Part shown: in pieces, positions 1,607 through 27,928 of the stretch | Position numbering within the stretch: position 1 is the first letter of the stretch | Layout: every line of letters begins with the position of its first letter | Origin: an uncultured Bifidobacterium sp. | GTDB lineage: Bacteria; Bacteroidota; Bacteroidia; UKL13-3 | Length of the DNA: 64,000 bases | Assembly: GCA_964529175.1 (NCBI GenBank) | Contig: CAZGVO010000003.1 | Location: forward strand, 195,120-259,119 | Reading direction: 5' to 3' | The notes under the pieces: model-generated | Told to the model about the DNA's origin: nothing | The model's database searches: none | Seen by the model: the letters and a program-made list of their open reading frames with translations, nothing else | Translations under genes and position numbers: made by a program

Positions 1607-4279
1607 ATGATCAAAGATTATACATTACGCCTTTCGGGCTTGGAGCCATTGGTAATTACTAAAGATACCAATTTTGTAAATGTGGGAGAAAGAACCAATG
1701 TAACGGGTTCTAAAATGTTTTTACGCCTTATACGTGAAGGTAATTTTGAAGAAGCTTTGGCTGTTGCTCGTCAGCAGGTAGAAGGCGGTGCGCAAATTAT
1801 CGACATCAATATGGATGAAGGAATGATTGATGGTGTGGAATCAATGGTTCGTTTTTTAAATTTGATTGCATCTGAACCAGATATTTCTCGCGTTCCTATC
1901 ATGATTGATTCTTCTAAATGGGAAATTATAGAAGCAGGATTAAAATGTGTGCAAGGTAAATGTGTGGTAAATTCTATTTCGCTAAAAGGTGGCGAAGAAG
2001 AATTTATCCGCCAAGCAAAAATTGTAAAACGTTTTGGAGCAGCAGTAATTGTAATGCTTTTTGACGAACAAGGACAAGCAGATAACTACGAACGTAGAAT
2101 AGAAATTGCAGAAAGAGCTTATCGAATCTTAACGGAAAAAGTTCATTTCCCTGCGGGTGATATTATTTTTGACCCTAATATTTTTCCAGTGGCTACCGGC
2201 ATGGAAGAGCACAGAAAAAATGCTTTAGATTTCTTTAACGGAACAAAATGGATTAAAGAAAATTTGCCAGGTGCAAAAGTTAGTGGTGGCGTTTCAAACG
2301 TTTCTTTTTCATTCAGAGGAAACGATAAAGTGCGCGAAGCCATGCACTCAGCATTTTTATTTCATGCCATCAATAACGGAATGGATATGGGTATTGTAAA
2401 TCCAAGTCAATTGGAAGTTTACGATCAAATAGATAAAGAATTATTAGAACATGTAGAGGATGTTTTATTAGATAGAAGAGACGATGCAACGGAACGTTTA
2501 TTGGAACTAGCCGAACGTGTTAAAGGAAAAGGAAAAGAAACTGCGGTTGACAACGAATGGCGCAAAGGAACAGTTCAAGAGCGTTTGAGTCATGCTTTAA
2601 TAAAAGGAATTGTTGAGTTTGTAGAAGCAGATACCGAAGAGGCAAGGTTAATTTACGACAAACCACTTGAAGTGATTGAAGGCCCTTTAATGGCCGGAAT
2701 GAACATTGTGGGTGATTTGTTTGGTGCTGGAAAAATGTTTTTACCGCAGGTAGTTAAAAGTGCACGTGTAATGAAAAAAGCCGTGGCTGTTTTGATGCCT
2801 TACATGGAAGAAGAAAAACGCAAAAATGGCAACATGACTACCAACCAAGGTAAAATATTGATGGCAACTGTTAAAGGCGATGTGCATGATATTGGAAAAA
2901 ATATTGTAGGTGTGGTTTTGGCTTGTAATAACTACGAAATTATTGACATTGGTGTAATGGTTCCTGCCGATAAAATTTTGGAAACTGCCATTAAAGAAAA
3001 TGTAGATGTAATTGGTTTAAGTGGATTAATTACACCAAGCTTGGACGAAATGGTGCATGTTGCCAAAGAAATGGAACGTTTAGGAATGAAAATACCATTA
3101 TTAATTGGAGGTGCTACCACCAGCCGTGCGCACACAGCAGTAAAAATTGACCCTGTTTACAGCGGACCAGTTGTACATGTGTTAGATGCAAGTAAAAGCG
3201 TGCCTGTGGCGGCAAGTTTAATTAGTCCTGACCAGCGACCAGCTTCGGAAAAGAAATTTAAAGACGAGTATGAACAATTTAGAATTGATTATAAAAACCG
3301 TAAAAAAGATAAAAACTCGGTTGATTTAGCAAAAGCAAGAACCAATAAAATTCCTGTAAGTTTTGATAATATAGTTGCACCTAAATTTTTAGGAACAAAA
3401 GTGTTTGATAATTTCCCCTTGGAAGAATTGCGCCAACGCATTGATTGGACTCCTTTCTTTTTAACATGGGAATTAGTAGGTCGTTATCCTGCCATTTTTG
3501 ATGATGAAATAGTTGGTGTAGAAGCCAAAAAATTATTTGACGATGCCAATAAAATGCTCGATAAAGTAATTAACGAAAAACTACTTACCGCACGCGGTGT
3601 AATTGGTTTTTATGAAGCAAATTCTGAAGGTGATGATATAATTATTTCCAACAACGGACAACCAACAACTTTCAACTATTTGCGCCAACAAGGCGAAAAA
3701 GCTGATGGACAACCTTACTTATGTTTGGCAGATTTTGTTGCTCCGAAAGAAAGTGGCAAAAAAGATTATTTAGGCATGTTTGCCGTAACAGCAGGAATTG
3801 GAATTGAGCCTTTGGTAGAAGCTTACGAAAAAGACCATGACGATTACAATAGCATTATGATTAAAGCCATTGCCGATAGATTGGCCGAGGCTTTTGCTGA
3901 AAAAATGCACGAATTGGTGAGAAAAGAATATTGGGGTTTTGCACCTAACGAGCAATTAACCGATGATGAAATAATCAGAGAAAAATACAATAGCATTCGC
4001 CCTGCGCCAGGTTACCCTGCCTGCCCAGACCATACCGAAAAACGTAAGTTGTTTGACATTTTGCAAGCTGAAACCAATGCAGGAATTACCTTAACGGAAA
4101 ACTTTGCCATGTATCCGGCTTCGGCAGTAAGTGGTTTTTATTTTGCCAATGAGGCAAGTAAATATTTTGCGGTAGGTAAAATTCAAAAAGACCAAGTTGA
4201 AGAATATGCCAAACGCAAAAACGTAAGCATTGACTACGTTGAAAAATGGTTAGCTCCTAATTTGGGATATGATAATTAG
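1607..4279 (+). CDS. metH: Methionine synthase (B12-dependent) carrying the pterin-binding, cobalamin-binding and AdoMet-activation domains
   Basis: The 890-aa protein begins RLSGLEPL...[12 protein letters not shown], which is colinear with E. coli MetH from the Hcy/pterin interdomain linker onwards. It contains the DxHDIGK B12-binding motif and the C-terminal activation domain. Confidence 0.9.
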
Positions 4280-25598: not shown

Positions 25599-25640
25599 TA
25601 GACGATAGACCATGGTCAATTAACTATGGACTATTATCTA
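25590..25640. repeat. Third locus of the palindromic GACCATGGTC/GACGATAG repeat family, wedged between the convergent purQ and dtd stop codons
   Basis: The sequence gttaatagttaatagacgatagaccatggtc...ctatggacta shares its first 17 nt with the copy at 1001-1017. The repeat supplies the codons VNS and a TAA-TAG double stop to purQ. Confidence 0.6.
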
Positions 25641-26090
25641 TTCCTTCAACTTACTATCAATCATTATAGTCACAGGGCCATTATTGGTTAAGCTGATTTG
25701 CATATCGGCACCAAATGATCCTGTGGCTATTTTTTTGCCCAAAAGCTCTTCCAGTTTTGCAATCATTTTTTCGTACAAAGGAATTGCAAATTCGGGCCTA
25801 CTAGCTTTGATATAAGATGGGCGGTTTCCTTTTTTAGTAGAGGCAAAAAGTGTAAATTGACTTACCAATAAAATATCGAAATTGGCATCAATAAGTGAAA
25901 TATTCATCACGCCATTTTCATCGTTAAACACCCTGAGATTTACTATTTTCTGTGCCAACCAATTGATATCTTCTTCCGAATCAGCATCCTCAATTCCTAA
26001 TAAAATCAATAAACCATTTCCGATTTCAGAAAATAGTTTGTTATCAATACGGACTTGGGCTTTTGTAACTCGTTGAATAATAATGCGCAT
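25638..26090 (-). CDS. dtd: D-aminoacyl-tRNA deacylase
   Basis: The 150-aa protein begins MRIIIQRV and carries the SQFTL and NGPVT motifs. Confidence 0.85.
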   Translation of the reverse strand: MRIIIQRVTKAQVRIDNKLFSEIGNGLLILLGIEDADSEEDINWLAQKIVNLRVFNDENGVMNISLIDANFDILLVSQFTLFASTKKGNRPSYIKASRPEFAIPLYEKMIAKLEELLGKKIATGSFGADMQISLTNNGPVTIMIDSKLKE

Positions 26091-26093
26091 GGG

Positions 26094-27002
26094 TTAGTTA
26101 TTATATGTCTTTTTCGTTTCTTCAATTACAATAATAATTTTTTGAAAATGTAAAAAATCATCATAAGTAAAAATCTTATTTTTATTTAACTCAAACCAAT
26201 AAATTATTGGATGGAAATTACCTATTTTATAATTGTATATGTTATTTGGTATGGTTTTAAAAAACTGCTCTTGTGAAAATTGTTCGGGAACAAAATTCCC
26301 TTCCGAAGGAGGGGTGTGCCGATAATTATCGCTAGAAGACCGGGGTGGCAAAATCAATGTATTTCCATCAAAATGATTAGCATAATTTTCAATAAAAAAA
26401 TTCTCTAACTCTTGCATCACATAAGTTAAACGTTTAAAAACATCAATTACTTTGATTCTAAAAACCCTTAACCCCAACTGCTTAAAATATGCTTCTCTTT
26501 CATTATCGTACTCTACTTTACTATCGTGGCTAGAACCATCTATTTCAATAACCAACCCAAATCTTTTAACATAAAAATCGACTATATAGTTACCTATAAC
26601 TCGTTGCCTATCAAAGTCAATATTATGAAAACCACCTTTGGTTACTTGTTTCCAAAACAATACTTCCGATAAATTTCTAGCTTGCCTTAACTGCTTTGCT
26701 TTTTCTTTCAAATTAGGGTTAAAAGGCAGTTCTGTAATTGGATTTTGAGTTAAAATAATATCATTGATAGCAATAACTCTATATGGCTTTTTTAACTCCC
26801 CGGTCTTCGACCACCCCTCTTTTTGAGGGGAATTTGACAGCCCGCACTTTTTGAATCCAATAATTGAAGAGCTAGTTTTATTATCAATAAATGCTTTCAA
26901 AAGTATTATCAAATTTTCAGAAAATGATTTACTCTGAATATTTTCAACTTTTACAAGTTGGTTTAAATAGGTAAAATATTCTTCAAAAGTCATTTCATAC
27001 AA
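26094..27002 (-). CDS. DUF559 (Vsr/Mrr-like endonuclease) domain-containing protein with unusual N- and C-terminal extensions
   Basis: The 302-aa protein has a central DUF559 core around residues 92-199 (LSEVLFWKQV...YIVDFYV...LVIEIDGSSHD...RVFRI). The flanking sequence is unrecognised. Two GC-rich islands in the coding DNA are inverted repeats of each other. Confidence 0.6.
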   Translation of the reverse strand: MYEMTFEEYFTYLNQLVKVENIQSKSFSENLIILLKAFIDNKTSSSIIGFKKCGLSNSPQKEGWSKTGELKKPYRVIAINDIILTQNPITELPFNPNLKEKAKQLRQARNLSEVLFWKQVTKGGFHNIDFDRQRVIGNYIVDFYVKRFGLVIEIDGSSHDSKVEYDNEREAYFKQLGLRVFRIKVIDVFKRLTYVMQELENFFIENYANHFDGNTLILPPRSSSDNYRHTPPSEGNFVPEQFSQEQFFKTIPNNIYNYKIGNFHPIIYWFELNKNKIFTYDDFLHFQKIIIVIEETKKTYNN

Positions 27003-27004
27003 CC

Positions 27005-27928
27005 CTAATTAAACACATCTTCGTTAGCCATAATGCTGAGGTAACTTTGATAACGTTCGGCAGGAATTATGCCTTGTTCAATGGCTTCTAAAACCGCGCA
27101 TTGAGGTTCGTTCATGTGTTTGCAATTATTGAATCTGCATTTACCTATATAGGGTTTCATTTCTTTAAAATAATGCGATAGTTCTGCATTGTTTAAATCC
27201 ACTACTCCAAACTCTCTAATTCCAGGTGTATCAATAATAAATCCGCCAAAACTTAAAGGATGCATTTGAGCAAAAGTGGTGGTATGTTGTCCATTAAAAC
27301 TCGATTTTGAAATTTCGCCCGTTTTTAAATTTAAGTTAGGCTCAATTCCGTTTAATAACGATGATTTTCCTACACCCGAATGACCAGCAACTAAAGTGGT
27401 TTTATCTTTCAATAAAGCCTTTACTTCATCTAACCCAATTTGGTCATTAACGGAAGTTTTTATGTAATTGTATCCAACCTGATTATGGTATAAATGAATG
27501 GTATCGTTCAATACATCTTCCAATCCATCGGTACATAAATCTACTTTATTAAAAATAATAGTAGTTGGAATATGATAAGCCTCGGCTGTAGCCAAAAATC
27601 TATCAATAAAACCTAGCGAAGTAGTAGGAAAAGCAATGGTTACCATTAATATAGCTTGGTCAATATTACTGGCTATAATATGCGTTTGTTTTGAAAGATT
27701 ACTGGCCTTACGAATGATGTAGTTTTTTCTGTTTTCAATTGAAAAAATCACCCCATTTTCGCTATTGGGTTCCATTTCAAAATTTACTTTATCGCCAACG
27801 GTTACAGGATTGGTGTGTTTTAAACCTTGTAATCTAAACTTACCTTTTAACCTGCAATTTACAATTTGCAAATCGGGTTTCATTACCTCGTACCAACTCC
27901 CAGTTGATTTTACAACAATTCCTTCCAT
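27005..27928 (-). CDS. rsgA: Ribosome small-subunit-dependent GTPase A
   Basis: The 307-aa protein has the GHSGVGKSSLLN P-loop and a C-terminal zinc-finger cysteine cluster. Confidence 0.85.
   Translation of the reverse strand: MEGIVVKSTGSWYEVMKPDLQIVNCRLKGKFRLQGLKHTNPVTVGDKVNFEMEPNSENGVIFSIENRKNYIIRKASNLSKQTHIIASNIDQAILMVTIAFPTTSLGFIDRFLATAEAYHIPTTIIFNKVDLCTDGLEDVLNDTIHLYHNQVGYNYIKTSVNDQIGLDEVKALLKDKTTLVAGHSGVGKSSLLNGIEPNLNLKTGEISKSSFNGQHTTTFAQMHPLSFGGFIIDTPGIREFGVVDLNNAELSHYFKEMKPYIGKCRFNNCKHMNEPQCAVLEAIEQGIIPAERYQSYLSIMANEDVFN

What the first reader, a model, noticed from the sequence alone, without database searches (positions are those of the whole stretch)
26094..27002. DUF559 endonuclease core embedded in a 302-aa ORF and bracketed by GC-rich inverted repeats (26296-26350 and 26796-26847)
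Two GC-rich islands sit in an AT-rich gene. The upstream one (in gene orientation) reads ccccggtcttcgaccacccctc. The downstream one reads gaggggtg[18-nt insert]gaagaccggggtgg, which is the reverse complement of the first split into 8-bp and 11-bp arms. Together they enclose the DUF559 domain almost exactly (residues ~92-199), about 470 bp apart. Both translate in frame (..SNSPQKEGWSKTGEL.. and ..PPRSSSDNYRHTPPSEG..). This may be the footprint of a mobile DUF559 cassette with terminal inverted repeats inserted in frame into a small host gene. It may instead be a long-range mRNA stem that controls the nuclease. The gene is wedged between dtd and rsgA.
Basis: seen in the sequence. Interest (0 to 1): 0.6.

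Follow-up and report, generated by a model that had tools for sequence, protein, structure and literature searches.

The report
Hairpin-ended DUF559 nuclease cassette inside genes
The two GC-rich islands are the inverted end-repeats of a small, probably selfish DNA cassette carrying a DUF559 nuclease gene; related cassettes sit in unrelated genes and gene gaps across Bacteroidota, often readable straight through, and this copy sits in the leftover tail of a restriction-enzyme gene and is starting to decay.

Summary
The repeat is longer than described: 24-nt and 19-nt arms, at window 26294-26350 (+) and 26793-26834 (-). Each arm is one copy of a ~42-nt two-hairpin unit: AATT, CCCCTCC-NNN-GGAGGGG, TG, a variable hairpin (usually a C-GNA-G triloop), then CGGGGTGG.

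A covariance model built only from metagenome copies hits both arms (E 9e-10 and 2e-7) and nothing else in the 64 kb.

The unit is dispersed in Bacteroidota-type metagenome DNA as solo copies, tandem arrays and inverted doublets. It also consistently brackets one DUF559 subfamily as unit(+)-DUF559-unit(-), spanning 0.44-0.61 kb.

Closely related cassettes (77-82% aa identity) lie in frame in non-homologous genes: Type ISP/IIG C-terminal domain, HsdR and an N6_N4 methylase. Others lie in operon spacers such as purK|purE. Uninterrupted Type ISP C-terminal homologs are the norm and carry no unit.

In the window, the downstream flank of the cassette is a relic of a Type ISP C-terminal domain. The whole ORF is an accessory insertion between rsgA and dtd, and that site is empty in relatives. 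The nuclease core is under purifying selection (dN/dS about 0.08), but two sister genomes carry nonsense codons.

The mobile in-frame cassette reading is supported. The "small host gene" and "regulatory mRNA stem" readings are not.

The parts
26294..26834 (-). The DUF559 cassette: unit, nuclease coding region, inverted unit (541 bp)
   Evidence: Bounded by the two covariance-model hits. Homologous cassettes of 442-614 bp have the same layout in 14 other loci.
26793..26834 (-). 5' repeat unit in gene orientation: AATT, hp1 CCCCTC-AAAAA-GAGGGG, TG, hp2 GTC-GAA-GAC, CGGGGAG. Translated as NSPQKEGWSKTGEL.
   Evidence: Model R1, built from metagenome copies only, scores 38 bits, E 8.8e-10. The DNA fold shows two local hairpins at -8.5 kcal/mol, z -2.5. 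It is 40/42 nt identical to the L006 ortholog, with 14/14 third codon positions identical against 67% elsewhere, P 0.004.
26294..26350 (+). 3' repeat unit, inverted relative to the gene: AATT, hp1 CCCTTCC-GAA-GGAGGGG, TG, palindromic insert, GAAGACCGGGGTGG. Translated on the gene strand as PPRSSSDNYRHTPPSEGN.
   Evidence: R1 scores 31.1 bits, E 1.7e-7. In the 75%-identity clade (L006) the same unit is contiguous, without the insert.
26317..26334 (.). 18-nt palindrome replacing the left half and loop of hp2 in the 3' unit (net +15 nt, in frame)
   Evidence: It is a perfect palindrome, TACCGATAATTATCGGTA, in L001, L004 and L012. The window copy has two mismatches, and L006 lacks it. Long AT-containing hp2 palindromes are common in the family.
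26406..26711 (-). DUF559 (Vsr-like PD-(D/E)XK) nuclease domain, residues 98-199
   Evidence: Pfam PF04480, E 5.6e-23. PDB 3HRL, E 2.6e-11, with the NYIVDF...E.DG..H motif aligned. dN/dS is 0.07-0.09 against L006, the same as rsgA.
26100..26258 (-). Relic of the C-terminus of a Type ISP/IIG C-terminal (specificity) domain
   Evidence: BLASTP against the uninterrupted Type_ISP_C protein P0122: 36% identity over 53 aa, E 1e-13. The Pfam Type_ISP_C hit is weak (E 0.016). It aligns with the region just downstream of the cassette insertion point in alignment A1. dN/dS is 0.34-0.5.
26835..27002 (-). Upstream flank of the ORF (about 53-56 aa), origin undetermined
   Evidence: No significant match to P0036 or to a Type_ISP_C profile. 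dN/dS is 0.2-0.46.
26094..27002 (-). Whole accessory ORF (302 aa from TTG; 299 aa from ATG 26993) filling the rsgA-dtd spacer
   Evidence: Present in L001-L004, L006 and L012. Absent in L005, L009-L011, L013, L015, L016 and L018, where rsgA and dtd are adjacent.
27005..27928 (-). rsgA (context)
   Evidence: Pfam RsgA_GTPase, E 3e-52.
25638..26090 (-). dtd (context)
   Evidence: Pfam Tyr_Deacylase, E 1e-57.

Best explanation
The two GC-rich islands are the terminal inverted copies of a ~42-nt, two-hairpin repeat unit. Its consensus is AATT, CCCCTCC-NNN-GGAGGGG, TG, a variable hairpin, then CGGGGTGG. Together with the DUF559/Vsr-like nuclease gene between them, they form a ~0.5-kb selfish cassette. 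The cassette has moved among unrelated sites in Bacteroidota: in frame inside restriction-modification genes, and into short spacers of housekeeping operons.

The units are largely free of stop codons in all six frames. A host ORF can therefore read straight through, and the nuclease ends up as a nested domain joined by Pro/Gly-rich linkers.

In this window the cassette sits in what remains of a Type ISP/IIG C-terminal domain gene. Relic plus cassette survives as one accessory ORF inserted between rsgA and dtd. Its nuclease core has been under purifying selection, but the gene is beginning to decay in sister genomes.

Shown: repeat-family membership, the hairpins, the cassette architecture, nesting in different hosts, empty sites, and the selection pattern.

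Inferred: the DUF559 nuclease itself drives spread by cutting a target or a unit hairpin, with the break repaired by copying in the whole cassette. Also inferred: solo and doublet units are non-autonomous derivatives, as MITEs or REPINs are.
For: Family membership:
- Model R1, made from 24 metagenome units, hits only the two islands in the 64 kb.

Dispersed family:
- R1 finds 182 hits on 100 of those loci.
- Copies occur as tandem arrays and as inverted doublets, 22 tail-to-tail and 22 head-to-head.

Hairpins:
- hp2 pairs switch among CG, GC, UA and AU. 0 of 500 shuffles reach the observed covariation, and slid controls collapse.
- 88 of 95 distinct hp2 sequences fold, and 42 have C-GNA-G triloops.

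Association with DUF559:
- In 813 kb, made up of ~11-kb stretches around rsgA in 80 Bacteroidota genomes plus 5 loci fetched through DUF559 proteins, 19 of 20 R1 hits flank DUF559 genes.
- 13 of 120 motif-selected loci carry the DUF559. Wherever flanking units were detected, the upstream one is co-oriented with the gene, and where a downstream one was detected, an inverted unit lies at or near the 3' end.

Mobility:
- The cassette lies inside single open frames in a full Type IIG/ISP gene (1353 aa), in HsdR between HSDR_N and SWI2_SNF2 (1275 aa), and in an N6_N4 methylase (742 aa).
- It also lies in the purK|purE and thiF|uvrD spacers.
- Cores in different hosts are 77-82% identical.
- 7645 Type_ISP_C relatives were scored, and nearly all of the best 120 are uninterrupted. 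The alignment shows a ~190-aa insertion at one site. 118 of 119 uninterrupted homologs have no unit-derived peptide.

Read-through:
- 46% of units are open in all six frames, against 10% of shuffles and 0.15% of window 44-mers.
- Solo units lie in frame in MnmE, HsdR, ResIII and a methylase.

Window locus:
- Empty sites exist in relatives.
- The C-flank is Type_ISP_C.
- dN/dS is 0.07-0.09 for the core and 0.2-0.5 for the flanks. Nonsense codons occur in L003 and L012.
- The 5' unit is conserved at synonymous positions.
Against: - No direct evidence shows that the DUF559 protein cuts units or target sites, or that it mobilises anything.
- No target-site duplication or exact filled/empty junction was seen for the cassette itself. 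The only DNA-level empty site found is for the whole ORF.
- Most motif-selected contigs (107 of 120) show units without a nearby DUF559, although many are contigs of only 1-3 kb. Units can therefore persist, and perhaps spread, without a local nuclease.
- No identical cassette was found at two places in one genome. P0096 and P0020 each have a single context.
- The frequent nesting at one Type_ISP_C site could partly reflect vertical inheritance of a fused architecture rather than repeated homing.
- How a host-gene relic plus cassette reached the rsgA-dtd spacer is unexplained.
Confidence: 0.7

Rival explanations
1. The units are an independent REP-like family, maintained by some other enzyme or by host functions. 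DUF559 is a resident protein that merely binds or uses them, as a domesticated partner like single-copy RAYTs, or as a repair or restriction-associated nuclease. On this view the cassette look reflects co-localisation rather than self-mobility.
For: Most units found by the motif scan have no DUF559 on the same contig. Doublet families such as L115/L137/L189/L197 replicate as units of their own. The core shows housekeeping-like purifying selection. Each stand-alone copy examined has a single conserved genomic context.
Against: Cores that are 77-82% identical sit in three non-homologous host genes, each time with both units. Uninterrupted Type_ISP_C genes carry no unit, so the units arrive with the nuclease. 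In 813 kb of Bacteroidota DNA (rsgA neighbourhoods plus 5 DUF559 loci), units are essentially confined to DUF559 flanks.
Confidence: 0.2
2. The two arms pair in the mRNA to form a long-range stem. The stem encloses the nuclease coding region and controls its translation or stability.
For: Both the RNA minimum-free-energy and centroid structures of 26285-26845 (-) pair the two arms, with z -3.3.
Against: Any transcribed inverted repeat gives this prediction. In many cassettes the arms differ in hp2 and in the hp1 loop, while each arm keeps its own hairpins. Solo units and tandem arrays are common. In stand-alone cassettes the 5' unit lies upstream of the start codon and the 3' unit lies after the stop. 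GNA triloops are a hallmark of stable DNA hairpins (established knowledge; counts).
Confidence: 0.06
3. The inverted repeats are recombination sites for a programmed inversion that flips the DUF559 segment and switches the gene on or off.
For: 'DUF559 domain-containing protein' is enriched (odds ratio 14) among predicted programmed-inversion targets, together with Eco57I-type methylases (PMC9881135).
Against: No recombinase gene lies within several kb. The arms are only ~42 nt. All six orthologs and all nested copies have the nuclease co-directional with the host frame. That survey scores inverted repeats as such, so a cassette with inverted ends would be flagged anyway.
Confidence: 0.03
4. 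The islands are chance GC patches or protein-level motifs of the DUF559 family.
For: Both islands are translated, and similar peptides (NSPPLEGC..GVV and PPRP..TPPEEGN) recur in homologs.
Against: The covariance-model E-values are 9e-10 and 2e-7. Units occur in all six frames relative to ORFs, and also outside ORFs. The 5' unit is conserved at synonymous sites.
Confidence: 0.01

Closest known systems
REP/REPIN-RAYT systems (repetitive extragenic palindromes and their associated tyrosine transposase)
   Same: A short hairpin repeat is dispersed as solo copies and as inverted doublets. A single enzyme gene is itself flanked by the repeats in inverted orientation.
   Different: The enzyme here is a Vsr-like PD-(D/E)XK nuclease (DUF559), not a Y1 HUH transposase. 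The units lack the GTAG tag. The units and the whole cassette are frequently inside ORFs and are translated.
Vsr-like homing endonucleases (I-Bth0305I family; PMC2677866, PMC3239194)
   Same: A Vsr-fold nuclease is encoded by a small selfish insertion in conserved genes. One host site (the Type ISP C-terminal domain) recurs, which resembles homing.
   Different: There is no intron, intein or split-intein context, and the insertion is not spliced out but read through. The cassette has hairpin inverted ends. The only sequence match in the PDB is 3HRL, not 3R3P.
Rickettsia palindromic elements and intragenic REPs (PMC3733652 for REPs inside ORFs)
   Same: [quoted passage not shown]
   Different: Those elements are non-coding and have no associated nuclease gene. 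Here an autonomous-looking version carries an entire folded domain into the host protein.
MITEs and their autonomous IS parents
   Same: Terminal inverted repeats bracket an enzyme gene, and short tail-to-tail doublets look like internally deleted derivatives.
   Different: No DDE or other known transposase is present, and no target-site duplication was seen. The ends are structured hairpins rather than plain TIRs.
DUF559 / PF04480 proteins (structure 3HRL, Neisseria gonorrhoeae endonuclease-like protein)
   Same: The domain is a clear family member.
   Different: The family is annotated as of unknown function. Neither the flanking units nor the nesting is part of its description.

Membership tests
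DUF559 (Pfam PF04480) | Profile match above the curated gathering score | tested here: met
   81.3 bits against a cut-off of 20.6, residues 98-199. 3HRL, E 2.6e-11.
DUF559 (Pfam PF04480) | Conserved Vsr-type catalytic motif (D ... E-x-D-G-x-x-H) | tested here: met
   IVDFY...VIEIDGSSH aligns with IVDFM...IVEADGGQH of 3HRL. Catalytic competence was not assayed.
Dispersed two-hairpin repeat family (model R1, defined here) | Full-length match to a covariance model built from independent copies | tested here: met
   E 8.8e-10 and 1.7e-7, model positions 1-44.
Dispersed two-hairpin repeat family (model R1, defined here) | Both hairpins supported by covariation | tested here: met
   hp2 has 4 of 4 pairs with changes on both sides. 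hp1 has a C-G to U-A switch at the apical pair. 0 of 500 shuffles reach the score. The alignment was fitted to the model, so this is a caveat; the slid-partner controls collapse.
Type ISP C-terminal specificity domain (PF18135) | Profile match above the gathering score | tested here: not met
   14.7 bits against 25.9. Only the last ~53 aa are recognisably homologous (BLASTP E 1e-13), so this is a relic and not a domain.
REPIN-RAYT | Y1 HUH transposase gene flanked by the repeats | tested here: not met
   The flanked gene is DUF559. No Y1_Tnp family was found by Pfam.
REPIN-RAYT | GTAG (or CGTC) tag at one end of the palindrome | tested here: not met
   The unit consensus has no GTAG. Only a subset ends in ...GACGGGG, which reads CGTC on the other strand.
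REPIN-RAYT | Repeats occur as inverted doublets that replicate as a unit | tested here: met
   22 tail-to-tail and 22 head-to-head pairs. A recurring ~120-bp doublet occurs in L115, L137, L189 and L197.
Homing endonuclease gene in an intron or intein | Embedded in a self-splicing intron or intein | tested here: not met
   No Rfam intron match. No Hint/intein domain in Pfam.
Homing endonuclease gene in an intron or intein | Cleaves the uninterrupted allele at the insertion site | not testable with these tools
   This needs a biochemical assay on the Type_ISP_C target DNA.
IS/MITE (TIR transposon) | Terminal inverted repeats | tested here: met
IS/MITE (TIR transposon) | Target-site duplication and a recognised transposase | tested here: inconclusive
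   No duplication is visible at the rsgA-dtd junctions, but those junctions are not the cassette ends. No DNA-level filled/empty pair for a cassette was available, and no transposase domain was found.
Programmed inversion switch | Nearby invertase, with both orientations observed | tested here: not met
   No recombinase among the neighbouring genes. A single orientation is seen in six orthologs.

The most novel reading that the evidence does not exclude
This DUF559 subfamily is the dedicated nuclease of a previously undescribed hairpin-repeat mobile element of Bacteroidota. It would be a functional analogue of RAYT-REPIN built on a Vsr-fold nuclease. Its stop-free ends let it colonise coding sequence without splicing, and it preferentially lodges in restriction-modification genes, possibly remodelling or disabling host defence.
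Probability: 0.35. Interest if true: 0.8.

Novelty: new variant of a known kind. Interest (0 to 1): 0.6.

Why it matters
DUF559 is a very large family with no assigned role. Linking one of its subfamilies to a defined hairpin repeat and to a cassette found in unrelated genes gives a concrete, testable function: a nuclease that acts on, or spreads with, those hairpins.

It would add a third route, besides introns and inteins, by which a nuclease gene can live inside an essential or defence gene. That route is ends that contain no stop codons in any frame, so the insertion is simply translated.

It also explains recurrent odd peptides in Bacteroidota annotations, such as NSPPLEGCP..GVV, PPRP..TPPEEGN and HPSKGGE. 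It warns that 'fusions' of DUF559 to HsdR, Type IIG or methylase genes may be insertions rather than designed architectures.

For this window in particular the result is modest. It is one ageing copy in an accessory slot between rsgA and dtd.

Tried and rejected
- Rfam: no family matches the units or the window region. The only hits were spurious long-hairpin miRNA matches below threshold.
- Upstream flank of the ORF: BLASTP against P0036 and a profile-profile comparison against uninterrupted Type_ISP_C both gave nothing. A shared MT[FL]E[EQ]Y start with Flavobacterium homologs is suggestive only.
- Recent transposition, sought as one identical protein in several contexts: P0096 (58 index blocks) and P0020 (14 contigs) each proved to have a single context.
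- Footprints or solo units at the Type_ISP_C insertion site in uninterrupted homologs: none in 118 of 119. This argues against the idea that the nuclease homes into pre-existing unit doublets at that site.
- Phage carriage: only 16 stretches in 2.9 million viral contigs carry the motif. This was not pursued.
- Literature: searches on DUF559, Vsr-like homing endonucleases, in-frame palindromic elements, REPIN/RAYT in Bacteroidetes and Type ISP insertions found no description of this cassette. The library is limited to open-access papers.
No whole-genome census of units was therefore possible.
- One script with an over-strict regular expression returned nothing useful and was redone.

Full report
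**Observation.**
The ORF at 26094-27002 (-) lies 2-3 nt from rsgA (27005-27928) and dtd (25638-26090). It contains a DUF559 domain at residues 98-199 (E 5.6e-23). Two GC-rich islands (GC about 0.5, against 0.15-0.35 around them) flank the domain.

The quoted 8-mer and 11-mer each occur exactly twice in the 64 kb, once per island on opposite strands. For the 11-mer, 0 of 100 shuffles gave two matches. The repeat finder extends the arms to 24 nt (83% complementary) and 19 nt (84%).

**What each arm is.**
Written from its AATT end, each arm reads as follows:
- AATT
- hairpin 1 (CCCCTC-loop-GAGGGG)
- TG
- hairpin 2 (GTC-GAA-GAC in the upstream arm)
- CGGGG(T/A)G

Homologous genes show the same plan with a different hairpin 2: GCCC-aac-GGGC in L083, and GTCCGCC-gca-GGCGGAC in L084.

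Hairpin 2 ranges from 8 to 47 nt. Of 95 distinct versions, 88 fold into a hairpin, and 42 of those have a C-GNA-G triloop.

I built covariance model R1 from 24 of these metagenome units. In the window it matches only the two islands, full length: 26793-26834 (-) at E 8.8e-10 and 26294-26350 (+) at E 1.7e-7.

On 150 aligned units, hairpin-2 pairs switch among CG, GC, UA and AU. No shuffle out of 500 reaches the observed covariation, and sliding the 3' partners destroys it. Rfam has no matching family.

**Link to DUF559.**
I searched 813 kb made up of ~11-kb stretches around rsgA in 80 Bacteroidota genomes plus 5 loci fetched through DUF559 proteins. R1 found 20 units, and 19 of them flank DUF559 genes. 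The exception is one intergenic solo copy in L048.

Among the 120 motif-selected contigs, 13 carry this DUF559 subfamily. Wherever flanking units were detected, the upstream unit is co-oriented with the gene. Where a downstream unit was detected, an inverted one lies at or near the 3' end. Some loci have extra tandem or paired units. Cassettes span 442-614 bp.

A stand-alone example is L206:
- purK stop
- unit at 2938-2979
- ORF at 3001-3507
- inverted unit at 3509-3551, overlapping the purE start

In that example the units are not translated. They are therefore DNA or RNA features, not protein motifs.

**Evidence that the cassette moves.**
Pfam scans of long open frames that run through units gave three nested cases:
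- a full Type IIG/ISP enzyme with the cassette inside Type_ISP_C (L153, 1353 aa)
- a type I HsdR with the cassette between HSDR_N and SWI2_SNF2 (L186, 1275 aa)
- an N6_N4 DNA methylase (L095, 742 aa)

The nuclease cores in HsdR, in the methylase and in a Type_ISP_C host are 77-82% identical to one another, although the hosts are unrelated.

I then searched with the two flanks of P0027 joined. This scored 7645 Type_ISP_C relatives, and nearly all of the best 120 are uninterrupted, at 62-70% identity over 96-100% of the query. The alignment places a ~190-aa insertion between '...NVVxKPxF' and 'GKVYIN...'. Of 119 uninterrupted homologs, 118 contain no unit-derived peptide. The units therefore come with the nuclease rather than pre-existing at the site.

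Solo units also lie in frame in MnmE, HsdR, a ResIII helicase, a methylase and a GNAT. All six reading frames are used.

Units are stop-free in all six frames in 46% of cases. The figure is 10% for composition-matched shuffles and 0.15% for random window 44-mers.

**The window locus.**
Genomes with rsgA 99-100% identical (L001-L004, L012), and one at 89% (L006), have the ORF. L005 (89%), L009-L011, L013, L015, L016 and L018 have rsgA and dtd 4-15 bp apart. The whole ORF is therefore an insertion. No duplication is visible at its junctions.

The last 53 aa match the C-terminus of an uninterrupted Type_ISP_C protein (E 1e-13). This is the region just downstream of the cassette insertion point. 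The first ~53 aa match nothing.

Selection differs by segment:
- Nuclease core: dN/dS 0.07-0.09 against L006, equal to rsgA.
- Flanks: dN/dS 0.2-0.5.
- L003 and L012 have in-frame stop codons at codons 108 and 162.

The 5' unit is 40/42 nt identical between the window and L006. Its third codon positions are 14/14 identical, against 67% elsewhere (P 0.004). This indicates constraint at the nucleotide level.

In the window's subclade, hairpin 2 of the 3' unit was replaced by an 18-nt palindrome. The palindrome is perfect in L001, L004 and L012, has two mismatches in the window, and is absent in L006.

**How it probably works.**
Shown: a hairpin-ended nuclease cassette that occupies unrelated sites and can be read through.

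Inferred: the DUF559 nuclease promotes the spread, most simply by cutting a target, with repair copying in the whole cassette. The recurrent Type_ISP_C site resembles homing, with occasional ectopic landings. Also inferred: solo units and ~120-bp tail-to-tail doublets are non-autonomous derivatives.

GNA triloops are known for unusually stable DNA hairpins (established knowledge). This favours a DNA-level role for the hairpins.

How a host-gene relic travelled with the cassette to rsgA-dtd is not explained. The same question applies to dtd|mazG in Flavobacterium weaverense and to M23|mfd in F. ovatum.

**Rivals.**
*Long-range mRNA stem.* It is predicted for this transcript. However, the arms of many cassettes differ in hairpin 2 and in loop sequence, while each arm keeps its own hairpins. 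Solo units are also common.

*Inversion switch.* There is no invertase nearby and only one orientation is seen. The enrichment of DUF559 among inverted-repeat-flanked genes in PMC9881135 is what a cassette with inverted ends would produce anyway.

*Independent REP family with DUF559 as a bystander or domesticated partner.* This remains possible at about 0.2.

**Comparison and novelty.**
The system works like a REPIN-RAYT pair or a homing-endonuclease cassette, and like the in-frame palindromic elements of Rickettsia. It fails the defining tests of each:
- no Y1 transposase and no GTAG tag
- no intron or intein
- no known transposase and no target-site duplication

Open-access literature searches found no description of it. 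I rate it a new variant of a known kind. The family-level picture is moderately interesting. The window copy itself is an ordinary ageing member.

Noticed in passing
L001:6890-7800 (GCA_027484685.1): A sister genome has extra DNA between the DUF559 ORF and dtd: a duplicated dtd 5' end (ATGCGTATTATTATTCAACGAGTTACAAAAG), then two small ORFs and a ParE-toxin gene. The rsgA-dtd spacer therefore looks like a hotspot for accessory insertions.
   Followed up: partly
L084:6432-9646 (Flavobacterium weaverense): A 45%-identical orphan (Type_ISP_C fragment plus cassette, 438 aa) also sits next to dtd, but downstream of it (rsgA-dtd-X-mazG). It shares an MT[LF]E[QE]Y start with the window protein. Whether this is shared ancestry or a repeated landing near dtd is unresolved.
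   Followed up: partly
L003:5936-6835 and L012:5936-6835: In-frame nonsense codons (codon 108 in L003, codon 162 in L012) occur in genomes whose rsgA is 99-100% identical to the window's. The gene is being lost in parts of the lineage.
   Followed up: yes
L115:72-195, L137:160-281, L189:863-984, L197:628-752: A ~120-bp tail-to-tail doublet recurs on four contigs. It has two different hairpin-2 versions and a conserved 30-nt spacer (TCGGTCACCTTCCCGCACAC.CCAAGAA.A). It looks like a MITE- or REPIN-like element copied as a whole.
   Followed up: partly
L106:1550-1811: Four to five units form a head-to-tail array with a 49-nt period, directly upstream of a DUF559 gene, followed by one inverted unit.
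   Followed up: no
L132:1564-1607: A solo unit is read in frame inside the helical domain of the tRNA-modification GTPase MnmE, a conserved housekeeping protein.
   Followed up: partly
L083:5623-9404: The host Type IIG/ISP gene is called as two ORFs (748 aa methylase part and 467 aa C-terminal part with the cassette), 131 bp apart. In L223 the two ORFs overlap by 59 nt near the 5' unit. Cassette-bearing restriction genes may often be broken.
   Followed up: no
L207-L222 (IMG/VR contigs): The hairpin-1 motif occurs on 16 stretches from 14 viral contigs. Whether these are phages of Bacteroidota, and whether they carry the nuclease, was not examined.
   Followed up: no
window 26094-27002 versus 27005-27928: The DUF559 ORF is only 90-94% identical in protein to its orthologs in genomes where rsgA is 99-100% identical. 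Synonymous divergence of its flanks (dS about 0.55 against L006) is lower than that of its core (1.1-1.4).
   Followed up: partly
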